A stretch of DNA of 64,000 nucleotides from an uncultured Bacteroidia bacterium (lineage in GTDB: Bacteria; Bacteroidota; Bacteroidia; Bacteroidales; UBA932), in assembly GCA_902774155.1 (NCBI GenBank), contig CACYHF010000006.1, forward strand, positions 37,391 to 101,390. Reading direction: 5' to 3'. A model generated the notes under the pieces. That model ran no database searches and was not told the origin of the DNA. It worked only from the letters and a program-made list of their open reading frames with translations. Made by a program: the position numbers and the translations under genes. Positions 1 to 13,416 of this stretch are shown here, piece after piece (the first letter of the stretch is position 1; each line of letters begins with the position of its first letter).

Positions 1-1704
1 GCCGCTGCAGACGCCGCCGTTGCAGCCAATACGGCCTCGTCGGCCACTATGGCTCCGGTAGCTCCGGTGTATTCTGATTCCCTCCTGAACAGCGCCGCCC
101 GGGCCGATGCCCAGCTGGTTACGCTGGAAAACAGCAAACTGGAAGTCGTGTTCACCACCCGGGGCGGCCAGCCGTACTCGGTGCGGGTGAAGGATTACCT
201 TACCTATGGCAAGGAGCCGCTGTATCTGCTCCAGGCCGATCAGTCCCAACTGGGATTCGTGGTGTATGCGCCCACGGCCGTGGACACGCGGAAATTCACC
301 TTCCAGTATGTGGCCGAGGCCTCCACGGACAGCACCGTGGTGATGCGCCTTCCTTTCGCCACCGGCGGTTACATCGAGCAGAAGTACACGCTGGTCCAGG
401 ATTCCTATTCGGTGAATGAGACCGTCTCGCTGGTAGGGATGGGAGATTTGATTCCCCGCAACGTGGGCAGTATGGACGTAGACTTCGACGCCGTGATTCC
501 CCGTATGGAGAAGGGCTACAAGAACGAAACCCAGTACTCCCGCCTGAACTATTACTTCCCGGACGACAACAAGCCCGCCAGCATCGGCAACGGCCGCAGA
601 GGAGAGAAGCGTTTCAATAACAATATTGAATGGTTCGCCTTCCAGCAGCAGTTCTTCAGCGCCATTATGCGTGCGCCTAAGAACTTCAGCTACGGAGAGT
701 TCTCCATCGACTTCCTGCCCAAGGGAGACAAAGACCTTATGCACTGCCAGGCTGCCCTCCGGGCCGATATCACCCCCGGCGATAACATCCAGGTCCCCTT
801 CGAGTTCTACTTCGGTCCTAATGATTACAAGGGCCTGAAGGCCTACGGCCACGCTTATGAGAAGGTGATTCCGCTGGGTGGTAAGGTCATCGGCGTTTTC
901 ACCAAATACGTGATCATCCCGCTGTTCGACTGGCTGTCCAAGTTCATCTCCAGTTACGGCATCATTATCCTGTTAATGACCATCTTCATCAAGATCGTGG
1001 TGTTGCCGTTTGCGTACAAGAGCTATTCCTCATCGGCCAAGATGCAGGCACTGAAGCCTTATATGGAGAAGATCAACGCCAAGTATCCCAAGCAGGAAGA
1101 TGCTATGAAGAAGCAGCAGGAAACCATGGCCCTCTACAAGAAGGCTGGGGTTTCGCCTATGGGCGGCTGTCTGCCCATGCTTTTGCAGATGCCTATCCTG
1201 TGGGCTATGTTCCGCTTCTTCCCGGCTTCCATCCAGCTGCGCCAGCAGCCTTTCCTCTGGGCCGAAGACCTGAGCGCCTATGACGATATCATCCATTGGG
1301 GCACCAGCATCCTGGGTATGGACCATATCTCGCTCTTTGCGCTCCTGATGGCCGTTTCCATGTTCTTCTACTCCAAGATCATGCAGCAGCAGACTGCAGG
1401 GAACGACCCCAACGCCAAGATGATGCAGGCCATGAGCCTGTATATGATGCCCATCATGATGTTCTTCATCTGTAACAACCTGTCTTCGGGTCTCAGCTAT
1501 TATTATCTGCTCAGCAACCTCATCACCATGGTGGAAACCTGGGTTATCCGCAAGTGGATCATCAATCCCCAGGATGTGATCGCCAAGGTGGAGGCCGCCG
1601 ATAAAGAGAACAAACCGGCCCCCAAGAGCAAGTGGCAGCAGCGTCTGGAAGAAGCGCAGAAGATGCAGCGTGAGATGGAAAAGCAAAGAGGCAAGAAACG
1701 CTAA
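1..1704 (+). CDS. yidC: Membrane protein insertase YidC (5' partial)
   Basis: Frame is open from base 1; periplasmic domain followed by the YidC core (GIIILLMTIFIK, KMQALKP, GGCLPMLLQMP, YYLLSNL). Confidence 0.95.
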   Translation, partial: AAADAAVAANTASSATMAPVAPVYSDSLLNSAARADAQLVTLENSKLEVVFTTRGGQPYSVRVKDYLTYGKEPLYLLQADQSQLGFVVYAPTAVDTRKFTFQYVAEASTDSTVVMRLPFATGGYIEQKYTLVQDSYSVNETVSLVGMGDLIPRNVGSMDVDFDAVIPRMEKGYKNETQYSRLNYYFPDDNKPASIGNGRRGEKRFNNNIEWFAFQQQFFSAIMRAPKNFSYGEFSIDFLPKGDKDLMHCQAALRADITPGDNIQVPFEFYFGPNDYKGLKAYGHAYEKVIPLGGKVIGVFTKYVIIPLFDWLSKFISSYGIIILLMTIFIKIVVLPFAYKSYSSSAKMQALKPYMEKINAKYPKQEDAMKKQQETMALYKKAGVSPMGGCLPMLLQMPILWAMFRFFPASIQLRQQPFLWAEDLSAYDDIIHWGTSILGMDHISLFALLMAVSMFFYSKIMQQQTAGNDPNAKMMQAMSLYMMPIMMFFICNNLSSGLSYYYLLSNLITMVETWVIRKWIINPQDVIAKVEAADKENKPAPKSKWQQRLEEAQKMQREMEKQRGKKR

Positions 1705-2417
1705 TGATTGCCGGTAATTTACATTCCATTCTGGAGAAACTGCCATCAGGTGTTCAACTGGTGGCAGTTTCCAAATTCCATCCTGTTGAACAGATCAGGG
1801 AGGCTTATGCCGCCGGGCAGCGGGTTTTTGCCGAAAGCCGTCCGCAGGAACTGGCAGCCAAAGTTCCCCAAATGCCGGCCGATGTTCAGTGGCATTTTAT
1901 CGGCCATCTGCAAACCAATAAACTGAAACTGGTCCTCCCTTATGTTTCTCTGGTTCAGTCGGTTGACTCTATTCATCTGCTGGAAGCCATTAACAATTGG
2001 GCGCTGACCAACGGCCGGGTGGTGGACGTTCTCCTGGAACTTCATTTAGGCGCCGAAGAAACCAAACAAGGCTTCACGGAAGATGAAATTCTGGATATAG
2101 CCACGGCCGAAAAAAATTATTTTTCGCAAGACTTTGCGAAAAACCAATTTTCTTCGGCCAACGCAACGCCAACGCATGTTCCGCTGAAGGGCGTTAGGAT
2201 CCGGGGGCTGATGGGGATGGCTACCAATACGGAGGACATGAGTGTGGTGGAACGGGATTTCGAGCGGATCGAGGCGCTGTTCCGGAAAGTTCAAGCCATG
2301 GGATTGCCGGATTTCACGGAGCTGTCCATCGGCATGTCAGGGGACTGGCCGCTGGCGGTTCGTCACGGAGCCACCATGGTGCGGATCGGCACCGGTATTT
2401 TCGGCCCGCGGGTATAA
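1704..2417 (+). CDS. yggS: PLP homeostasis protein YggS/PLPBP, carrying an in-frame palindromic insert
   Basis: LVAVSKFHP, WHFIGHLQTNK, GLMGM, LSIGMSGD, GATMVRIGT motifs; TAATG overlap with yidC. Confidence 0.95.
   Translation: MIAGNLHSILEKLPSGVQLVAVSKFHPVEQIREAYAAGQRVFAESRPQELAAKVPQMPADVQWHFIGHLQTNKLKLVLPYVSLVQSVDSIHLLEAINNWALTNGRVVDVLLELHLGAEETKQGFTEDEILDIATAEKNYFSQDFAKNQFSSANATPTHVPLKGVRIRGLMGMATNTEDMSVVERDFERIEALFRKVQAMGLPDFTELSIGMSGDWPLAVRHGATMVRIGTGIFGPRV
2105..2159. repeat. AT-rich imperfect palindrome inside yggS, bounded by CGGCC direct repeats
   Basis: Left arm ggccgaaaaaaattatttttcgcaa, loop gact, right arm ttgcgaaaaaccaattttcttcggcc; CGGCC at 2104-2108 and 2155-2159. Confidence 0.85.
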
Positions 2418-2480: not shown

Positions 2481-4284
2481 ATGAGTCAGAACAAAGATAT
2501 CATCCGCCGTTTCTCAGCCTGGTATTTCAGTAAACGGGTCCTGCCATATTGGGCTATCCTTTTAGCGGATTCCTTTATTGTATTCCTCTGCTGTGTTTTC
2601 ACTTTTTGGATAACGTATAAGATACAATCTTTGCTGGTGCACTGGCATGCTGTATTCTATACAGCCCTGATGTATTCTGCCATCAGTTGGATTGGTGCCC
2701 GCGTTTTCAAGACCTATTCAGGGGTACTGCGTTATTCCAGTTTCGTAGACCTGATGAAACTTACCTATGCCAATGGACTTTCCCTGGTCATTGTGCTGTT
2801 AGTTTCTCTTGTGCTCAGAAAGTTGGAGGTGAGCATGCTGGTGGCTTTGGAGCCTCTTCATACCATAGTGGTCTTCTTATTGTCCACGCTGCTGATGTGG
2901 GGTCTGAGAGTTTCGGTGAAATTCCTCTTCGATGCCACGAATACCGATTCCCAGGCAAAGCGGGCGCTGATTTACGGCGCTCTTACCGGTGGTGTCGGCT
3001 TGGCCAAGAATATCCGAACCCAGCGGTCCTCGGAGTTTGACATAAGAGGTTTCATCTCACACGAGCACCGCATCAAGGACATGAATTTGCTGGGTGTTCC
3101 CGTGTATACGCTGGAAGATGACCTTGAGGCCATTGTCAAGAAGCAACGTATCCAAGCCTTGCTGGTGAGTCCTGCCCGTGTGAACGAGTTCCGGGAAAAC
3201 CAGAAAGTGCAGGATATCATGATTGCCAACGGCGTCAAGATGTACATGGCACATGAGGCCACGGAGGCCACCGTGAAGGACGGAGAACTTCAGGTAGAGA
3301 AAATACCTCTGCAGGAGGTTAGTGTGGAGGATTTGCTGCCGCGTTCGGAAATCCGGGTGGATATGAACTCCGTGGGACAGCAATTGACTGGTAAACGGGT
3401 CCTTATTACGGGTTCGGCCGGTTCCATCGGCATGGAAATCGTCCGGCAGGTAGCTCGGTTCGGCCCTGAAAAGATGATGCTGCTGGACCAGGCCGAAACG
3501 CCCCAGCACGACGTCCGTCTGATGATGGCCCGTGATTTCCCCCAGATCTCCTGCGAGGTTGTGGTCACCAGCATCAGCCGCCGTACGCGGATGGAGTTCA
3601 TTTTCCAGGATTTCCGTCCGGATTATGTCTTCCATGCGGCCGCGTACAAACATGTGCCTATGATGGAGGACAACCCCAGCGAAGCCGTGCTCAACAATAT
3701 TTACGGTACCAAGGTCATCGCGGATCTGAGCGTCAAGTACGGGGTGAAGAAATTCGTGATGATTTCCACCGACAAAGCGGTGAATCCAAGGCAAGTCGGT
3801 CGAGTATACCCAGTTTGTTACCACCCGCTTCGGCAATGTGCTGGGCAGTAACGGCAGTGTGATTCCGCTGTTCAAGGAGCAGATCAAAAACGGCGGCCCT
3901 GTTACGGTAACCGACGAAAACATCGTCCGTTTCTTCATGCTCATTCCGGAAGCCTGCAAACTGGTACTGGAAGCCGGTACCAAAGGCAATGGTGGAGAGA
4001 TTTTCGTTTTTGACATGGGACAACCGGTAAAGATCGCCGACCTTGCCAAACGCATGATCGCCCTCTCCGGTGCCAAGGACGTGAAAATTGAATATACCGG
4101 CTTGAGGGAAGGGGAGAAACTCTATGAAGAGGTACTGAACGAACTGGAAAATACCAAACCCACTTTCCACGAAAAAATCCGCATCGCCCAGGTGCGCGAA
4201 TACGATTATGAAGACGTGTGCCGCGCCATTGACGATCTGGTGGAAACCGCCAAACACTTCGACGAGCAACAACTCCGTGTATGA
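2481..4284 (+). pseudogene. CapD/PglF-like nucleotide-sugar 4,6-dehydratase, split by an internal deletion and frameshift near 3785
   Basis: ORF 2481-3851 has TM region, GSAGSIG, HAAAYKHVP and STDKAVNP; frame 3784-4284 resumes IQGKSVEYTQFVTTRFGNVLGSNGSV; the catalytic M/YGxSK helix is missing. Confidence 0.85.
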
Positions 4285-6864: not shown

Positions 6865-8055
6865 ATGATTGCAATTTATACCATCACCTCCGGTTTGCAC
6901 GATGAGCAATCCGTTTCCCGGCTCAGCGATTCCTTCCTGAAGGGGGTCTTCCCCGAGGGAGGTTTTTTGTATCAGGGAGCCGATTTCTCCGACTTCGGCA
7001 CCCATACGCTGGACCTGATTTATGTGCGCACCGGCGGTGCGGAAGGCATTTTCAAGAGCCTGCTGCCCGAAATGCGGGCGCGCGGAATCGGCCGTTTCTA
7101 TTTGCTCACTTCCGGAAAGAGCAATTCCCTGGCGGCTTCGCTGGAGATTCTTTCCTATCTGCAGCAGCAGGGGCTCAAGGGTGAAGTATTGCATGGCGGT
7201 CCCGCTTATATGCAGGAGCGTATCCAAATACTGGAACGGGTATCCCAGGCTCGTGCGAAACTGCAGGGCGCCCGTATTGGCGTAGTGGGGCAACCCTCGG
7301 ACTGGCTCATCGCCAGCCAGGCCGATCCTATGGCCATCAAGGACAAGTTGGGAGCTTCCCTGGTGGAAATTCCTATGGAAGAATTGTTGCTGGAAATCCC
7401 CCGGGCTCAGCAGAACGAGGCCCCGGCCGATGAACCGATGGCTCCGGCCGTCCGCCAGGCCTATCCCGGCGCTACCCAGATTTACCACGCACTGGAAAAG
7501 CTGGTGGAACGGTATGGTTTATCGGCCTTTACGCTCCGCTGTTTCGATTTGCTCACAGCGGTGGGCAACACCGGCTGCCTGGCGCTGGCTTCCTTCAACG
7601 CCGATGGCCTCCCGGCCTCCTGCGAAGGCGATGTCCCGGCGCTCCTGTCTATGATGGTGGCGCAGGCCGTGACCGGTTTTTCGGGCTTCCAGGCCAATCC
7701 CGCCCGCATTGACGTGGAAACGGGCCGAATGCTTTTCGCCCACTGCACCGTCCCGTTCAATATGGTGGGGAAGTGGCAGTACGACACCCATTTCGAGTCC
7801 GGCATCGGCGTGGGCATCCACGGCGAACTGCCGGAAGGCCCGGTGACGGTGTTCAAGCTGTCCGGCAAACTGGACCGTCACTTTGTAGCCGAAGGAGAAC
7901 TGCTTTATAATCAGTACGAAGACAATTTGTGCCGTACGCAGGTGATGCTGCAGCTCAAGCCGGAAGATGCCCGGTACTTCCTGACCCGTCCCATCGGCAA
8001 TCACCATATTATTCTTCCCGGTCACTGGCGGTCCGTTTTGGAGGAACTCCTATGA
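6865..8055 (+). CDS. L-fucose/L-arabinose isomerase-like protein
   Basis: LRCFDLL, ASCEGD, AHCTVP, THFESG motifs resemble the FucI/AraA superfamily C-terminal region. Confidence 0.6.
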   Translation: MIAIYTITSGLHDEQSVSRLSDSFLKGVFPEGGFLYQGADFSDFGTHTLDLIYVRTGGAEGIFKSLLPEMRARGIGRFYLLTSGKSNSLAASLEILSYLQQQGLKGEVLHGGPAYMQERIQILERVSQARAKLQGARIGVVGQPSDWLIASQADPMAIKDKLGASLVEIPMEELLLEIPRAQQNEAPADEPMAPAVRQAYPGATQIYHALEKLVERYGLSAFTLRCFDLLTAVGNTGCLALASFNADGLPASCEGDVPALLSMMVAQAVTGFSGFQANPARIDVETGRMLFAHCTVPFNMVGKWQYDTHFESGIGVGIHGELPEGPVTVFKLSGKLDRHFVAEGELLYNQYEDNLCRTQVMLQLKPEDARYFLTRPIGNHHIILPGHWRSVLEELL

Positions 8056-12051: not shown

Positions 12052-13416
12052 ATGACAGAATTGTCGTACAAACTTCCGAAACGCTATTCTTTCAAATCTA
12101 TTTGGAAGATCACTTTCCCCATCCTGGTAGCGTTGGTGATGGAAGAACTGCTGGGAATGACGGATACGGCTTTCCTGGGCCGCGTAGGGGAGATTGAGCT
12201 GGGTGCCTCTGCCATTGCAGGCGTATACTTCACCATCCTGTATATGCTGGGCTTTGGTTTCTCCATAGGGGTTCAAATCATCATTGGCCGTCGGAATGGA
12301 GAAGCATTTAAAACCGGAAAGGGCTTTGAATCCATCGGATGTATCTTCTGGCAGGGTGTATGGTTCCTGGTGGCTCTGGCATTAGTGACCATCGGCCTGT
12401 CGTTCTTCCTGTCTCCGCCGCTTCTCCGGTCCATCCTGAGTTCGGAGAACATCTATAATGCTTCCATCATCTATGTGAACTGGCGAATTCCGGGCCTGCT
12501 CTTTGCCTTTATGACCGCGCTGTTCCGCGCTTTCTACGTGGGAACGTGGGAGACATCCTGCCTCACCTGGAACTCCATCGTGTTGGTAAGCAGCAATATC
12601 CTGTTGGACTGGGTGCTCATCTTCGGCCATTGGGGTGCACCGGCTATGGGCATTCAGGGTGCCGCATTGGCCTCCACCATTTCGGAAGGCATTTCATTGG
12701 TCTTTTTCGTTATCTGGGCTGCCTTTACGGCCGATAAAAAATTCGCCCTCCATAAGCCGGTTAAACCTATGTGGGGGGAACTCAAGCAAATGTTCTCCAC
12801 TGCCTCTTGGGTGATGGTTGAGTATGTGCTGAATGTCTCGGTGTGGCTGCTTTTCTTCCTGTTTATCGAACATCTGGGCGAGGAGCAGCTGGCCATTGCC
12901 AACATTGTCCGGAGCATTTCCGAGGTGCCATTTGTTTTCTCGGCGGCCTTTGCCTCTACGGCTGCCTCCCTGGTGAGTAACATCATCGGAGAAGGCCATC
13001 CCGAAGGTGTGGTTTCCGTCATTCGGCGGGTGCTTTTACTCTGTACGGTAACCATGTTGCCTCTGCTGGCAATCTTCGCTCTGTTCCCGCACTGGATTAT
13101 CGGCCTGTTTACCGACATTCCTTCTCTGATCCAAGGTTCTGTCCCTACGCTTTTGGTGATGTGCGCCTGCACCCTCGTCACCTTGCCTTGGAATGTCTAT
13201 CTGCAGTCCGTTGCCGGAACGGGAGACACCCGTGTGTGCCTCCGCTTCGATGTGGTGGCTTTGTGCGTCTATGCGGTGTACTGCACCATCATCATCGGCA
13301 TCCTTAAATCCAGTATCGCCGTTTGCTGGACAGCCGATGGCGTCTATTCCCTCTGCATCTGGATTCAGTGTGTCATATACATCCACTGGAAAAATAAACG
13401 TCTCTACAACGCATAA
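12052..13416 (+). CDS. MATE family efflux transporter
   Basis: 12-TM pattern, TDTAFLGRVG, MGIQGAALASTISE; ATG at 12052 preferred over the ORF-track start. Confidence 0.9.
   Translation: MTELSYKLPKRYSFKSIWKITFPILVALVMEELLGMTDTAFLGRVGEIELGASAIAGVYFTILYMLGFGFSIGVQIIIGRRNGEAFKTGKGFESIGCIFWQGVWFLVALALVTIGLSFFLSPPLLRSILSSENIYNASIIYVNWRIPGLLFAFMTALFRAFYVGTWETSCLTWNSIVLVSSNILLDWVLIFGHWGAPAMGIQGAALASTISEGISLVFFVIWAAFTADKKFALHKPVKPMWGELKQMFSTASWVMVEYVLNVSVWLLFFLFIEHLGEEQLAIANIVRSISEVPFVFSAAFASTAASLVSNIIGEGHPEGVVSVIRRVLLLCTVTMLPLLAIFALFPHWIIGLFTDIPSLIQGSVPTLLVMCACTLVTLPWNVYLQSVAGTGDTRVCLRFDVVALCVYAVYCTIIIGILKSSIAVCWTADGVYSLCIWIQCVIYIHWKNKRLYNA

What the first reader, a model, noticed from the sequence alone, without database searches (positions are those of the whole stretch)
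2104..2159. Palindromic element inserted in frame inside the conserved gene yggS
Seen: a 51-bp segment (2109-2159, 17/51 = 33% GC in a GC-rich gene) forms a roughly 25-bp imperfect hairpin with a GACT loop. It is bounded by a CGGCC direct repeat (2104-2108, 2155-2159). It adds exactly 17 codons (EKNYFSQDFAKNQFSSA), and removing it leaves a clean frame (ATA|NAT). Known: Rickettsia palindromic elements and some REP/MITE families insert in frame into genes and create new peptide loops. Inference: this is a footprint of a non-autonomous palindromic repeat family in this lineage that colonises coding sequences, probably at GGCC sites. It sits in the variable loop before the GLM strand of the TIM barrel.
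Basis: partly seen in the sequence, partly recalled or inferred. Interest (0 to 1): 0.72.

Follow-up and report, generated by a model that had tools for sequence, protein, structure and literature searches.

The report
In-frame palindromic repeat inside yggS
The hairpin in yggS is one copy of a small palindromic repeat family that sits in frame inside many housekeeping genes of uncultured rumen Bacteroidales, much like the Rickettsia palindromic elements, so it is a new family of a known kind of selfish DNA.

Summary
The hairpin is real: 2105-2159, DNA fold -21 kcal/mol, z = -7, inside a YggS gene. It is not unique. The genome holds 13 copies, 11-12 of them inside long ORFs (YggS, ATP synthase gamma, MutY, RibF, a GT2 glycosyltransferase, CitC-CitG, CitX, HAD-YbaK). 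More than 80 further copies lie in at least 33 rumen or gut Bacteroidales MAGs. An AT-rich core (AAATTATTTTT / AAAAACCAATTT) is shared, and the stems around it covary. Near-identical strains carry a yggS allele that lacks exactly 57 bp (19 codons, not 51 bp/17), bounded by a 4-nt repeat, GCCA. Metatranscriptome contigs keep the insert joined to yggS. AlphaFold places it in a low-confidence loop before the VRIRGLMGM strand. The same loops of YggS, AtpG and GT2 carry other, unrelated palindromic repeats in sister lineages. No transposase, parent IS or Rfam family could be linked to it. Whether the yggS polymorphism arose by insertion or by slippage deletion is unresolved. Verdict: a new family of RPE/REP-like intragenic palindromic repeats.

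The parts
1704..2417 (+). Host gene: YggS-family PLP-binding protein (237 aa, stop included)
   Evidence: ORF. Pfam PF01168, E = 3.9e-17. PDB PipY/YggS matches split into query residues 2-125 and 160-236. AF2 TIM barrel with mean pLDDT 89.8.
2104..2160 (+). 57-bp segment (19 codons) present here and absent from the empty-site allele. Its placement is ambiguous by 4 nt (2100-2156 to 2104-2160).
   Evidence: Alignment with L193/L194 (allele P0014): one clean 57-bp gap and one SNP in about 190 nt.
2105..2159 (+). Imperfect hairpin ('type A' element): arms 2105-2129 / 2134-2159, loop GACT 2130-2133
   Evidence: Fold -21 kcal/mol, z = -7.07; inverted repeat I5.
2114..2124 (+). Conserved 5' core block AAATTATTTTT
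   Evidence: Present in all copies collected with the core pattern. It pairs with 2139-2150, leaving A2119 unpaired opposite CC 2144-2145.
2139..2150 (+). Conserved 3' core block AAAAACCAATTT
2100..2103 (+). GCCA, left copy of the 4-nt direct repeat bounding the indel
2157..2160 (+). GCCA, right copy of the 4-nt direct repeat bounding the indel
2160..2177 (+). 'Tail' motif AACGCAACGCCAACGCAT (NATPTH). It recurs right after the hairpin in unrelated genes and is present in the hairpin-less allele.

Best explanation
The segment is an intact copy of a short palindromic repeat of about 55-57 bp with no coding capacity, here called type A. The family lives in uncultured rumen and gut Bacteroidales. 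It has an AT-rich imperfect duplex core (AAATTATTTTT / AAAAACCAATTT, with a conserved A versus CC asymmetry), a variable apical stem-loop and a variable basal stem. In a longer form it also has a 5' motif CC[TC][AG]CGG and a 3' tail (A/T)CGCAACGCCAACGCAC. Copies are dispersed in unrelated genes, mostly inside coding sequence, and are read through in frame. Five of the six reading frames through the element are open, and the frame giving ..ENYFSQGFAKNQFS.. predominates. In yggS the element adds 19 residues to a surface loop between a helix and the VRIRGLMGM strand. The gene therefore stays intact, the insert stays in the mRNA, and it is most likely translated as a floppy loop.

Shown: the repeat family, the in-frame positions, an allele without the hairpin, empty sites in orthologues, stem covariation and retention in RNA contigs.

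Inferred: that copies spread by transposition-like mobilisation in trans, probably by an enzyme that recognises the folded single-stranded hairpin by shape rather than sequence (a HUH/Y1-type or similar enzyme; this step is a guess). Also inferred: that selection keeps only insertions in tolerant loops and open frames. Hairpins can also be lost precisely by slippage between the short repeats that flank them.
For: - Copy number in the genome: nhmmer finds 13 copies with E < 1e-9 (blastn).
- In-frame positions: 11-12 copies lie in long ORFs with confirmed Pfam identities. These are YggS, GT2, MutY, AtpG, CitC-CitG (4 copies, both orientations), CitX, RibF (2 tandem copies) and HAD-tRNA_edit.
- Read-through: the one copy that would be read in the frame carrying TAA has TAT instead, and the G010 orthologue shares this change.
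Almost all are rumen or gut Bacteroidales MAGs from at least 33 assemblies. In 72 of 80 copies the longest spanning ORF is at least 120 aa, and 37 use the NYFS..KNQF frame.
- Patchy distribution: 1 of 24 same-genus genomes and none of the 300 other sampled genomes of the family have it.
- Covariation: 24 pairs over 61 distinct copies are 88.3% paired, against 75.0% in shuffles (0/500) and 35-61% when the pairing is slid. There are 225 double-sided changes against 89 in shuffles (own count).
- Empty sites: the yggS allele P0014 differs by a clean 57-bp gap. Distant alleles lack the tail as well (P0029). MutY of G010 and G007 lacks the insert.
- RNA: metatranscriptome contigs join the yggS flanks and the insert with 0-2 differences, and no joint skips the insert.
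- Structure: the barrel is confident, pLDDT is about 50 at residues 141-160, and the insert lies between helix 126-140 and strand 164-172. PDB homologues have 12 residues where this protein has 34.
- No Rfam family matches the element.
Against: - No mobilising gene was found. None of the four Y1_Tnp ORFs of this genome, and 1 of 26 Y1_Tnp matches in 8 copy-rich MAGs (a weak hit), has a type A hairpin nearby.
- No isolated half-sites point to a parent IS, and there is no true copy in viral contigs.
- No consistent target duplication is seen. Only one locus could be compared at nucleotide level.
- The yggS polymorphism does not prove a recent insertion. Filled and hairpin-less alleles are intermixed on the allele tree (at least 3 changes forced; P0005 and P0018 are identical outside the loop). 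The 4-nt repeats flanking a hairpin are the classic substrate for slippage deletion.
- Translation of the insert has not been shown.
- The RNA evidence comes from assembled contigs, and DNA carry-over cannot be excluded.
- The pattern search fixed the 23 core bases, so core invariance is partly by construction.
Confidence: 0.77

Rival explanations
1. The element in yggS is old and immobile today. The hairpin-less allele arose by precise deletion (replication slippage between the GCCA repeats across the hairpin), possibly several times, and recombination then spread the alleles. The family would be a decaying relic rather than an active invader.
For: - Filled and tail-only alleles are intermixed on the yggS tree, and one pair is identical outside the loop.
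- The tail motif, which belongs to the repeat family, remains in the hairpin-less allele.
- A hairpin-less tail element also exists at C72:2893.
- The AtpG copy is conserved across species of 74-99% identity and shows decay (a 27-nt loss here; P0137).
Against: - Copies sit in unrelated genes with near-identical cores.
- Distribution among species is very patchy.
- GT2 carries the long form in two lineages of 72% identity, while intermediate lineages lack it.
- Some spread must therefore have happened. This rival concerns timing, not nature.
Confidence: 0.4
2. The hairpin is a functional nucleic-acid motif kept by host selection, such as a binding site for a host protein, an mRNA stability or processing signal, or a recombination or replication signal. 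It would not be selfish DNA.
For: - The stems covary strongly around a conserved asymmetric core.
- Some subfamilies sit just outside genes.
- The hairpin is very abundant in one metatranscriptome (depth about 11,000 over the hairpin in X4, from many loci).
Against: - Most copies in this genome are inside coding sequence, in several frames and both orientations.
- Presence varies between near-identical strains.
- It is absent from nearly all relatives.
- No Rfam family matches.
- The T-run precedes the GC stem and the A-run follows it, so it is not terminator-like on either strand (sequence).
Confidence: 0.1
3. It is a protein-level module: a peptide motif (NYFSQGFAKNQF) selected for function and moved between proteins by recombination.
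For: One reading frame dominates (10 of 12 intragenic copies here; 37 of 80 in MAGs).
Against: - The same DNA is read in at least five frames and also occurs between genes.
- Variation preserves base pairing rather than amino acids (for example QGFA, CSCS, GRCP, EGFP in the middle).
- AF2 gives low confidence for the segment.
Confidence: 0.02
4. It is a local replication error (a template-switch quasi-palindrome) or an assembly artefact unique to this contig.
For: Palindromes can arise by strand switching.
Against: - There are 13 copies here and dozens elsewhere with the same core.
- The identical allele occurs in independent ENA, NCBI, JGI and Logan assemblies and in RNA contigs.
Confidence: 0.01

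Closest known systems
Rickettsia palindromic elements (RPE; Ogata et al. 2000, as described in PMC10969869 and PMC3733652)
   Same: Both are short palindromic repeats inserted in frame in unrelated housekeeping genes. Both leave the genes intact, add a peptide segment, use one dominant reading frame and are found at tolerated protein positions.
   Different: - The host phylum differs: Bacteroidota from the rumen, not obligate intracellular Alphaproteobacteria.
- This element is shorter, at 55-57 bp (about 100 bp in the long form), against about 100-150 bp for RPE-1.
- No sequence relation to the RPE families is known, and none was tested here.
- It has an AT-rich conserved core with covarying GC stems.
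- The same loops are shared with other repeat families.
Intragenic REPs: GTAG- and CGTC-tagged palindromic repeats with RAYT transposases (Di Nocera et al. 2013, PMC3733652)
   Same: Both are small imperfect palindromes in many copies, and some lie inside ORFs, including DNA repair genes. Several families can coexist in one genome. Y1-type transposase genes are present in this genome, and one of them is flanked by its own REP-like hairpins.
   Different: - There is no constant GTAG or CGTC tag.
- Most copies in this genome are intragenic rather than extragenic.
- No RAYT gene is flanked by this hairpin.
Bacterial MITEs (for example Correia/NEMIS, ERIC, Nezha)
   Same: Both are small non-autonomous elements made essentially of two inverted arms, are dispersed, are sometimes intragenic with in-frame fusions, and show presence/absence polymorphism.
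   Different: - No parent IS with matching ends was found.
- No regular target duplication is seen, only a 4-nt repeat at one locus.
- The outermost arms vary between copies while staying complementary, which is unusual for transposase-bound TIRs.
Integron attC sites (from my own knowledge, not tested)
   Same: In both, structure is conserved rather than sequence. Both are an imperfect hairpin with conserved unpaired bases that could mark one strand.
   Different: There is no R/L box consensus (GTTRRRY), no cassette array and no integrase nearby, and these copies lie inside genes.

Membership tests
RPE-like in-frame palindromic repeats (the general kind) | Repeated palindromic sequence present in many unrelated loci | tested here: met
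   13 copies in the genome and more than 80 in other MAGs.
RPE-like in-frame palindromic repeats (the general kind) | Inserted inside ORFs without breaking the frame, with host genes recognisable and full length | tested here: met
   yggS, atpG, mutY, ribF and others are intact.
RPE-like in-frame palindromic repeats (the general kind) | Orthologues or alleles without the insert | tested here: met
   The yggS allele P0014 lacks 57 bp. MutY of G010 and G007 and the short-loop YggS orthologues lack the insert.
RPE-like in-frame palindromic repeats (the general kind) | Insert is translated and lies on the protein surface | tested here: inconclusive
   The insert is retained in RNA contigs. The AF2 loop has pLDDT about 50 and lies outside the barrel core. 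There are no peptide data.
Rickettsia RPE families 1-10 (strict membership) | Sequence similarity to an RPE consensus | not tested
   No RPE sequences were compared. Host phylum and element size differ, so I do not file it as a member.
REP/REPIN with RAYT | GTAG (or CGTC) tetranucleotide at one end of the palindrome | tested here: not met
   The 5' flank is CC[TC][AG]CGG. CTAC (GTAG on the other strand) occurs in only some copies.
REP/REPIN with RAYT | A Y1 transposase (RAYT) gene flanked by the same repeats | tested here: not met
   None of the 4 Y1_Tnp ORFs in this genome is flanked by type A, and the one on C41 has different hairpins. Among 26 Y1_Tnp matches in 8 MAGs, 1 weak case has a copy within 600 nt. 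Draft MAGs may miss such genes.
MITE | Terminal inverted repeats and small size, with no coding capacity | tested here: met
   The 55-nt element consists of two arms of 25-26 nt.
MITE | Target-site duplication of fixed length | tested here: inconclusive
   A 4-nt repeat GCCA bounds the yggS indel. No pattern is evident at the other copies, and no further nucleotide-level empty sites were obtained.
MITE | Parent IS with the same ends | tested here: not met
   No isolated half-sites in the genome. The assembly is a draft, 92% complete.
Described structured RNA family (Rfam) | Match to a covariance model | tested here: not met
   No match to the element at E <= 1 in 8 loci carrying copies.

The most novel reading that the evidence does not exclude
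Rumen Bacteroidales may host a structure-specific, attC-like single-strand DNA recombination or transposition system. Its modular hairpin cassettes (type A, the GC-rich type B and others) would home into one another or into already colonised sites. This would explain why the very same loops of YggS, AtpG and GT2 carry different nested palindromes in sister lineages, and it would make those loops hypervariable protein segments.
Probability: 0.12. Interest if true: 0.8.

Novelty: new member of a known kind. Interest (0 to 1): 0.55.

Why it matters
Frequent in-frame colonisation of housekeeping genes by palindromic selfish DNA is best known from Rickettsia, and intragenic REPs have since been reported in several other bacteria. 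This case shows the same phenomenon, with several coexisting families, in abundant free-living uncultured rumen Bacteroidales. Three consequences follow.

- It explains many odd low-complexity loops in MAG-predicted proteins (NYFSQGFAKNQF, SRPLPL.., HSERSEES..). These can mislead annotation, alignment and structure prediction.
- It offers natural insertion-tolerance maps for conserved enzymes.
- It provides strain-level markers, such as the filled versus hairpin-less yggS alleles.

The covarying stems around a fixed asymmetric core point to an unidentified enzyme that reads hairpin shape, and that enzyme is worth finding.

Tried and rejected
- **Target duplication and GGCC target.** I rejected CGGCC as a target duplication and GGCC as the target. 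The stem base is itself palindromic and the empty site reads AGCC|AACG.
- **Rfam.** The scan of 8 loci found nothing on the element.
- **RAYT/Y1 transposase link.** Y1_Tnp ORFs exist, but none is associated with type A.
- **Parent IS.** The search for isolated half-sites found none.
- **Transposon between two copies.** The inverted pair in L082 encloses a serpin-like ORF and a sigma-factor-like ORF, with no transposase-like ORF (identified by eye, no family search run).
- **Phage vector.** The one viral-contig match is an AT-rich chance hit without stems.
- **Outer stem as an inverted copy of the target flank.** This is not supported at yggS, where the stem words are absent from the empty allele.
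- **More empty sites from DNA runs.** Laying public DNA contigs on the CitC/CitX and HAD loci gave broken contigs and unclear joints and no clean empty site.
- **RNA splicing or bypass of the insert.** No skipping joint appears in the RNA contigs, and the TAA to TAT change in the stop-containing frame argues for read-through.
- **Intrinsic terminator.** The T-run is 5' and the A-run 3' of the GC stem on both strands.
- **Earlier notes of this scan.** They held nothing on this element.

Full report

Window 2100-2165 folds as single-stranded DNA into one long imperfect hairpin at 2105-2159. Its energy is -21 kcal/mol, against -7.1 +/- 2.0 for dinucleotide shuffles (z = -7.07, none of 200 shuffles as good). 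A repeat scan finds the arms independently. The hairpin lies inside a 237-aa ORF, 1704-2417 on the + strand. This ORF is a YggS-family PLP-binding protein (Pfam PF01168; PDB PipY/YggS). Segment 2109-2159 is 33% GC, against 54% for the rest of the gene. The sequence-level observation is therefore correct. Only one copy lies in the window.

**2. It is a repeat family.**

The window is C6:37391-101390 of a 2.43-Mb draft genome of 88 contigs and 56% GC. Short-word BLAST and then an nhmmer profile find 13 copies with E < 1e-9.

Eleven or twelve of them lie inside long ORFs whose Pfam identities I confirmed:
- YggS
- a GT2 glycosyltransferase
- MutY
- ATP synthase gamma
- a CitC-CitG fusion with four copies in both orientations
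- CitX
- RibF, with two tandem copies
- a HAD-YbaK fusion

One copy follows a stop codon directly.

Ten of the twelve intragenic copies are read as ..E(E/K)NYFSQGFAKNQFS... The element is open in five of its six frames. The one copy that sits in the sixth frame has TAT where the consensus would give TAA, and the G010 orthologue shares this change. That argues the element is read through by ribosomes.

**3. Anatomy.**

All copies share the blocks AAATTATTTTT and AAAAACCAATTT. These pair with each other, leaving a conserved A opposite CC. The apical stem-loop between the blocks and the 6-9 bp basal stem outside them differ between copies but stay complementary. Examples of basal stems are GGCCGAAG/CTTCGGCC, GGCATCAGG/CCCGATGCC, GCATTAG/CTAATGC and GCAGAG/CTCTGC.

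I measured this on 61 distinct gapless copies:

| Measure | Observed | Control |
|---|---|---|
| Cells paired, 24 proposed pairs | 88.3% | 75.0% in shuffles (0/500 reach it); 35-61% when slid |
| Double-sided changes | 225 | 89 in shuffles |

These figures are; my own count agrees. One caveat applies: the 23 core bases were fixed by the search pattern.

Many copies also carry a 5' motif CC[TC][AG]CGG and a 3' tail (A/T)CGCAACGCCAACGCAC. Some add an outer stem, giving an element of about 100 nt. In the window the tail is 2160-2177 (NATPTH).

No Rfam family matches the element. The T-run lies 5' and the A-run 3' of the GC stem on both strands, so it is not terminator-like.

**4. Distribution.**

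- Of 24 same-genus genomes, only G010 has the element, with 5 copies, two of them at sites orthologous to the CitC copies.
- In a sample of 300 other genomes from 37 genera of the family, none has it.
Nearly all are 'Bacteroidales bacterium' MAGs from cattle, yak, buffalo, deer, reindeer and similar hosts, including two Candidatus Cryptobacteroides. At least 33 assemblies appear among the 80 loci shown.
- In those MAGs, 72 of 80 copies have a longest spanning ORF of at least 120 aa, and 37 use the NYFS..KNQF frame. Some GC-stemmed subfamilies sit at gene ends and are intergenic.
- Viral contigs gave only one AT-rich chance match.

A wide but very patchy spread fits a mobile element.

**5. Empty sites.**

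Most YggS orthologues have about 11 residues between 'EIL' and 'VRIRG' where this protein has 33.

Among close homologues, a 218-aa allele (P0014, P0018, P0023 and others) reads ..EILAIA|NATPTHVPLKG... Its DNA (L193/L194) matches the window over about 190 nt except for one SNP and one clean 57-bp gap. The gap is bounded by the 4-nt repeat GCCA. The variable unit is therefore the 57-bp hairpin (19 codons). The site is AGCC|AACG, not GGCC, and the tail is present without the hairpin. More distant alleles (P0029..DILAGEASPAVRIRG..) lack the tail as well.

MutY of G010 and G007 lacks its insert.

On a tree of yggS alleles with the loop masked, filled and hairpin-less alleles are intermixed, with at least three changes forced. 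P0005 and P0018 are identical outside the loop, and two filled alleles sit on otherwise 'no-element' backbones. The locus therefore recombines and/or changes state repeatedly. I cannot tell insertion from precise slippage deletion between the GCCA repeats. A hairpin-less tail element at C72:2893 fits the deletion route. The case for mobility rests on the dispersed copies and their patchy spread, not on this polymorphism alone.

**6. Fate in RNA and protein.**

Four metatranscriptome assemblies contain contigs that join the yggS flanks to the insert. X4 record 28 covers 2022-2170 with 0 differences, and X3 record 20 covers 1950-2196 with 2. No joint skips the insert. These are assembled contigs, and DNA carry-over cannot be excluded.

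AlphaFold2 with a 53-sequence alignment gives a confident TIM barrel (mean pLDDT 89.8, pTM 0.86). The insert (residues 134-152) and tail (153-158) lie between helix 126-140 and strand 164-172 (VRIRGLMGM). Mean pLDDT is 51 and 49 for residue blocks 141-150 and 151-160. PipY (5nlc) aligns to residues 2-125 and 160-236 and has 12 residues where this protein has 34.

**7. Hot loops and other families.**

In G010 (81% identical YggS) and G007 (69%), the same loop holds different GC-rich palindromes. G010 has 29-nt arms enclosing 107 nt, and G007 has 26-nt arms enclosing 71 nt. These 'type B' sequences are themselves repeated 10-20 times in G000, G010 and G007, both in ORFs and between genes. Other YggS alleles carry inserts of up to about 65 residues, and one further indel pair is of type B (P0034 versus P0026).

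The AtpG loop carries type A plus tail in species of 74-99% identity. The copy in this genome has lost 27 nt, and P0137 is decayed. Other lineages carry different repeat peptides in that loop.

The GT2 loop carries type A in two lineages of 72% identity but not in intermediate ones. Elsewhere it carries type B or other families.

Either very few loops tolerate insertions, or the elements home to colonised sites. I could not separate these two explanations.

**8. Mechanism of spread.**

I looked for a partner gene.
- The genome has four Y1_Tnp (IS200/IS605-like) ORFs of about 310 aa. One is flanked by its own, different REP-like hairpins, and none is flanked by type A.
- In 8 MAGs rich in copies, 1 of 26 Y1_Tnp matches has a copy within 600 nt, and that hit is weak.
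- There are no isolated half-sites of a parent IS.
- There is no transposase-like ORF between the one inverted pair I examined.

The fixed asymmetric core with free-to-vary stems suggests recognition of a folded single strand, as with REP/RAYT, IS200/IS605 ends or attC. That is inference only.

**9. Comparison with known elements, and novelty.**

Intragenic, in-frame palindromic repeats are known. Examples are the RPEs of Rickettsia and intragenic GTAG/CGTC REPs in several phyla (PMC3733652; PMC10969869). The element here behaves like those. It lacks the GTAG/CGTC tag, has no RAYT association, and is mostly intragenic in this genome. I found no description of such repeats in Cryptobacteroides/UBA932 or rumen Bacteroidales. 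I file it as a new family of a known kind.

**10. Verdict.**

The hairpin, the frame and the loop position are right, but the boundaries and the 'direct repeat' are wrong. The family, the in-frame colonisation and the empty allele hold up. The GGCC target and a linked RAYT do not.

Noticed in passing
L033:1898-2062 (G010 yggS); L029:1895-2017 (G007 yggS); G000 C11:42295-42422, C17:35708-35815, C22:45200-45254 and 82074-82121, C2:3036-3112, 7808-7907, 13190-13256, C15:19271-19358, C62:2729-2797: A second, GC-rich palindromic repeat family ('type B', with motifs such as GGCCACCCTCGGCC..AAGAGGGAGGGGCC..GGGAGGGGTCGCGAAGCGAC). It has 10-20 copies per genome in three species, some in frame in long ORFs, and it occupies the same yggS loop in sister species.
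   Followed up: partly
AtpG proteins P0123, P0137, P0138, P0153; GT2 proteins P0242, P0243, P0253, P0274: In different lineages, the same single loop of ATP synthase gamma and of the GT2 glycosyltransferase is occupied by at least three unrelated repeat-encoded peptides (NYFSQGFAKNQF, SRPLPL.., VILSESEES, VIPGSDR..). The cause could be hot-spot targeting or a tolerance filter.
   Followed up: partly
G000 C13:57121-57200 (L006, about 2620-2700), inside ribF: Directly after two tandem type A copies, ribF carries a short tandem array, CATTCTGAGCAT.., read as HSEHSYC about four times and ending in HSERSEES. This is another repeat word that recurs next to type A copies in MAGs (L148, L150).
   Followed up: no
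G000 C41, Y1_Tnp ORF (match at C41:14801-15133, - strand) and its flanks: A 319-aa Y1-transposase-like ORF is flanked on both sides by a different hairpin (AAATCGATTAC..N8-10..GTAATCGATTT). It looks like a RAYT with its own REPs.
   Followed up: no
L205 about 1655-1675 (G010 mutY, - strand): At the place where G000 MutY has its type A insert, G010 has a perfect 19-bp palindrome, GTCTTCGGC-C-GCCGAAGAC. It is made of the same words as the type A basal stem but in swapped order. These words are common in the genome, so it may be chance.
   Followed up: partly
window 2481-4284: The CapD-like polysaccharide biosynthesis gene downstream of yggS is split into two overlapping ORFs (2481-3851 and 3838-4284). 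The near-identical contigs L193/L194 have one 653-aa gene there. This is a frameshift or an assembly error in this genome.
   Followed up: no
L007:2846 (G000 C18, right behind the HAD-YbaK type A copy): One public DNA assembly (X15) has 30 extra bases (TGAAGACCTGAACGTTGACGAAAAGGCCGG) inserted directly after the element. The edge of this copy is therefore also variable between strains.
   Followed up: no
window 2109-2133: This copy has an A7 run (GAAAAAAAT), read in frame as A_AAA_AAT, 7 nt upstream of the inner stem. Formally this resembles a -1 frameshift site, and the -1 frame ends soon at a TAG. Other copies have GAAGAAAAT, so it is probably incidental. A homopolymer here is also a likely site of indel errors.
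   Followed up: no
L082:2602-4095: A 497-aa ORF that follows a sigma-factor-like ORF (no family search was run on either) in a buffalo rumen MAG contains one intact type A composite element and at least one further degenerate composite copy, both read in frame.
   Followed up: no
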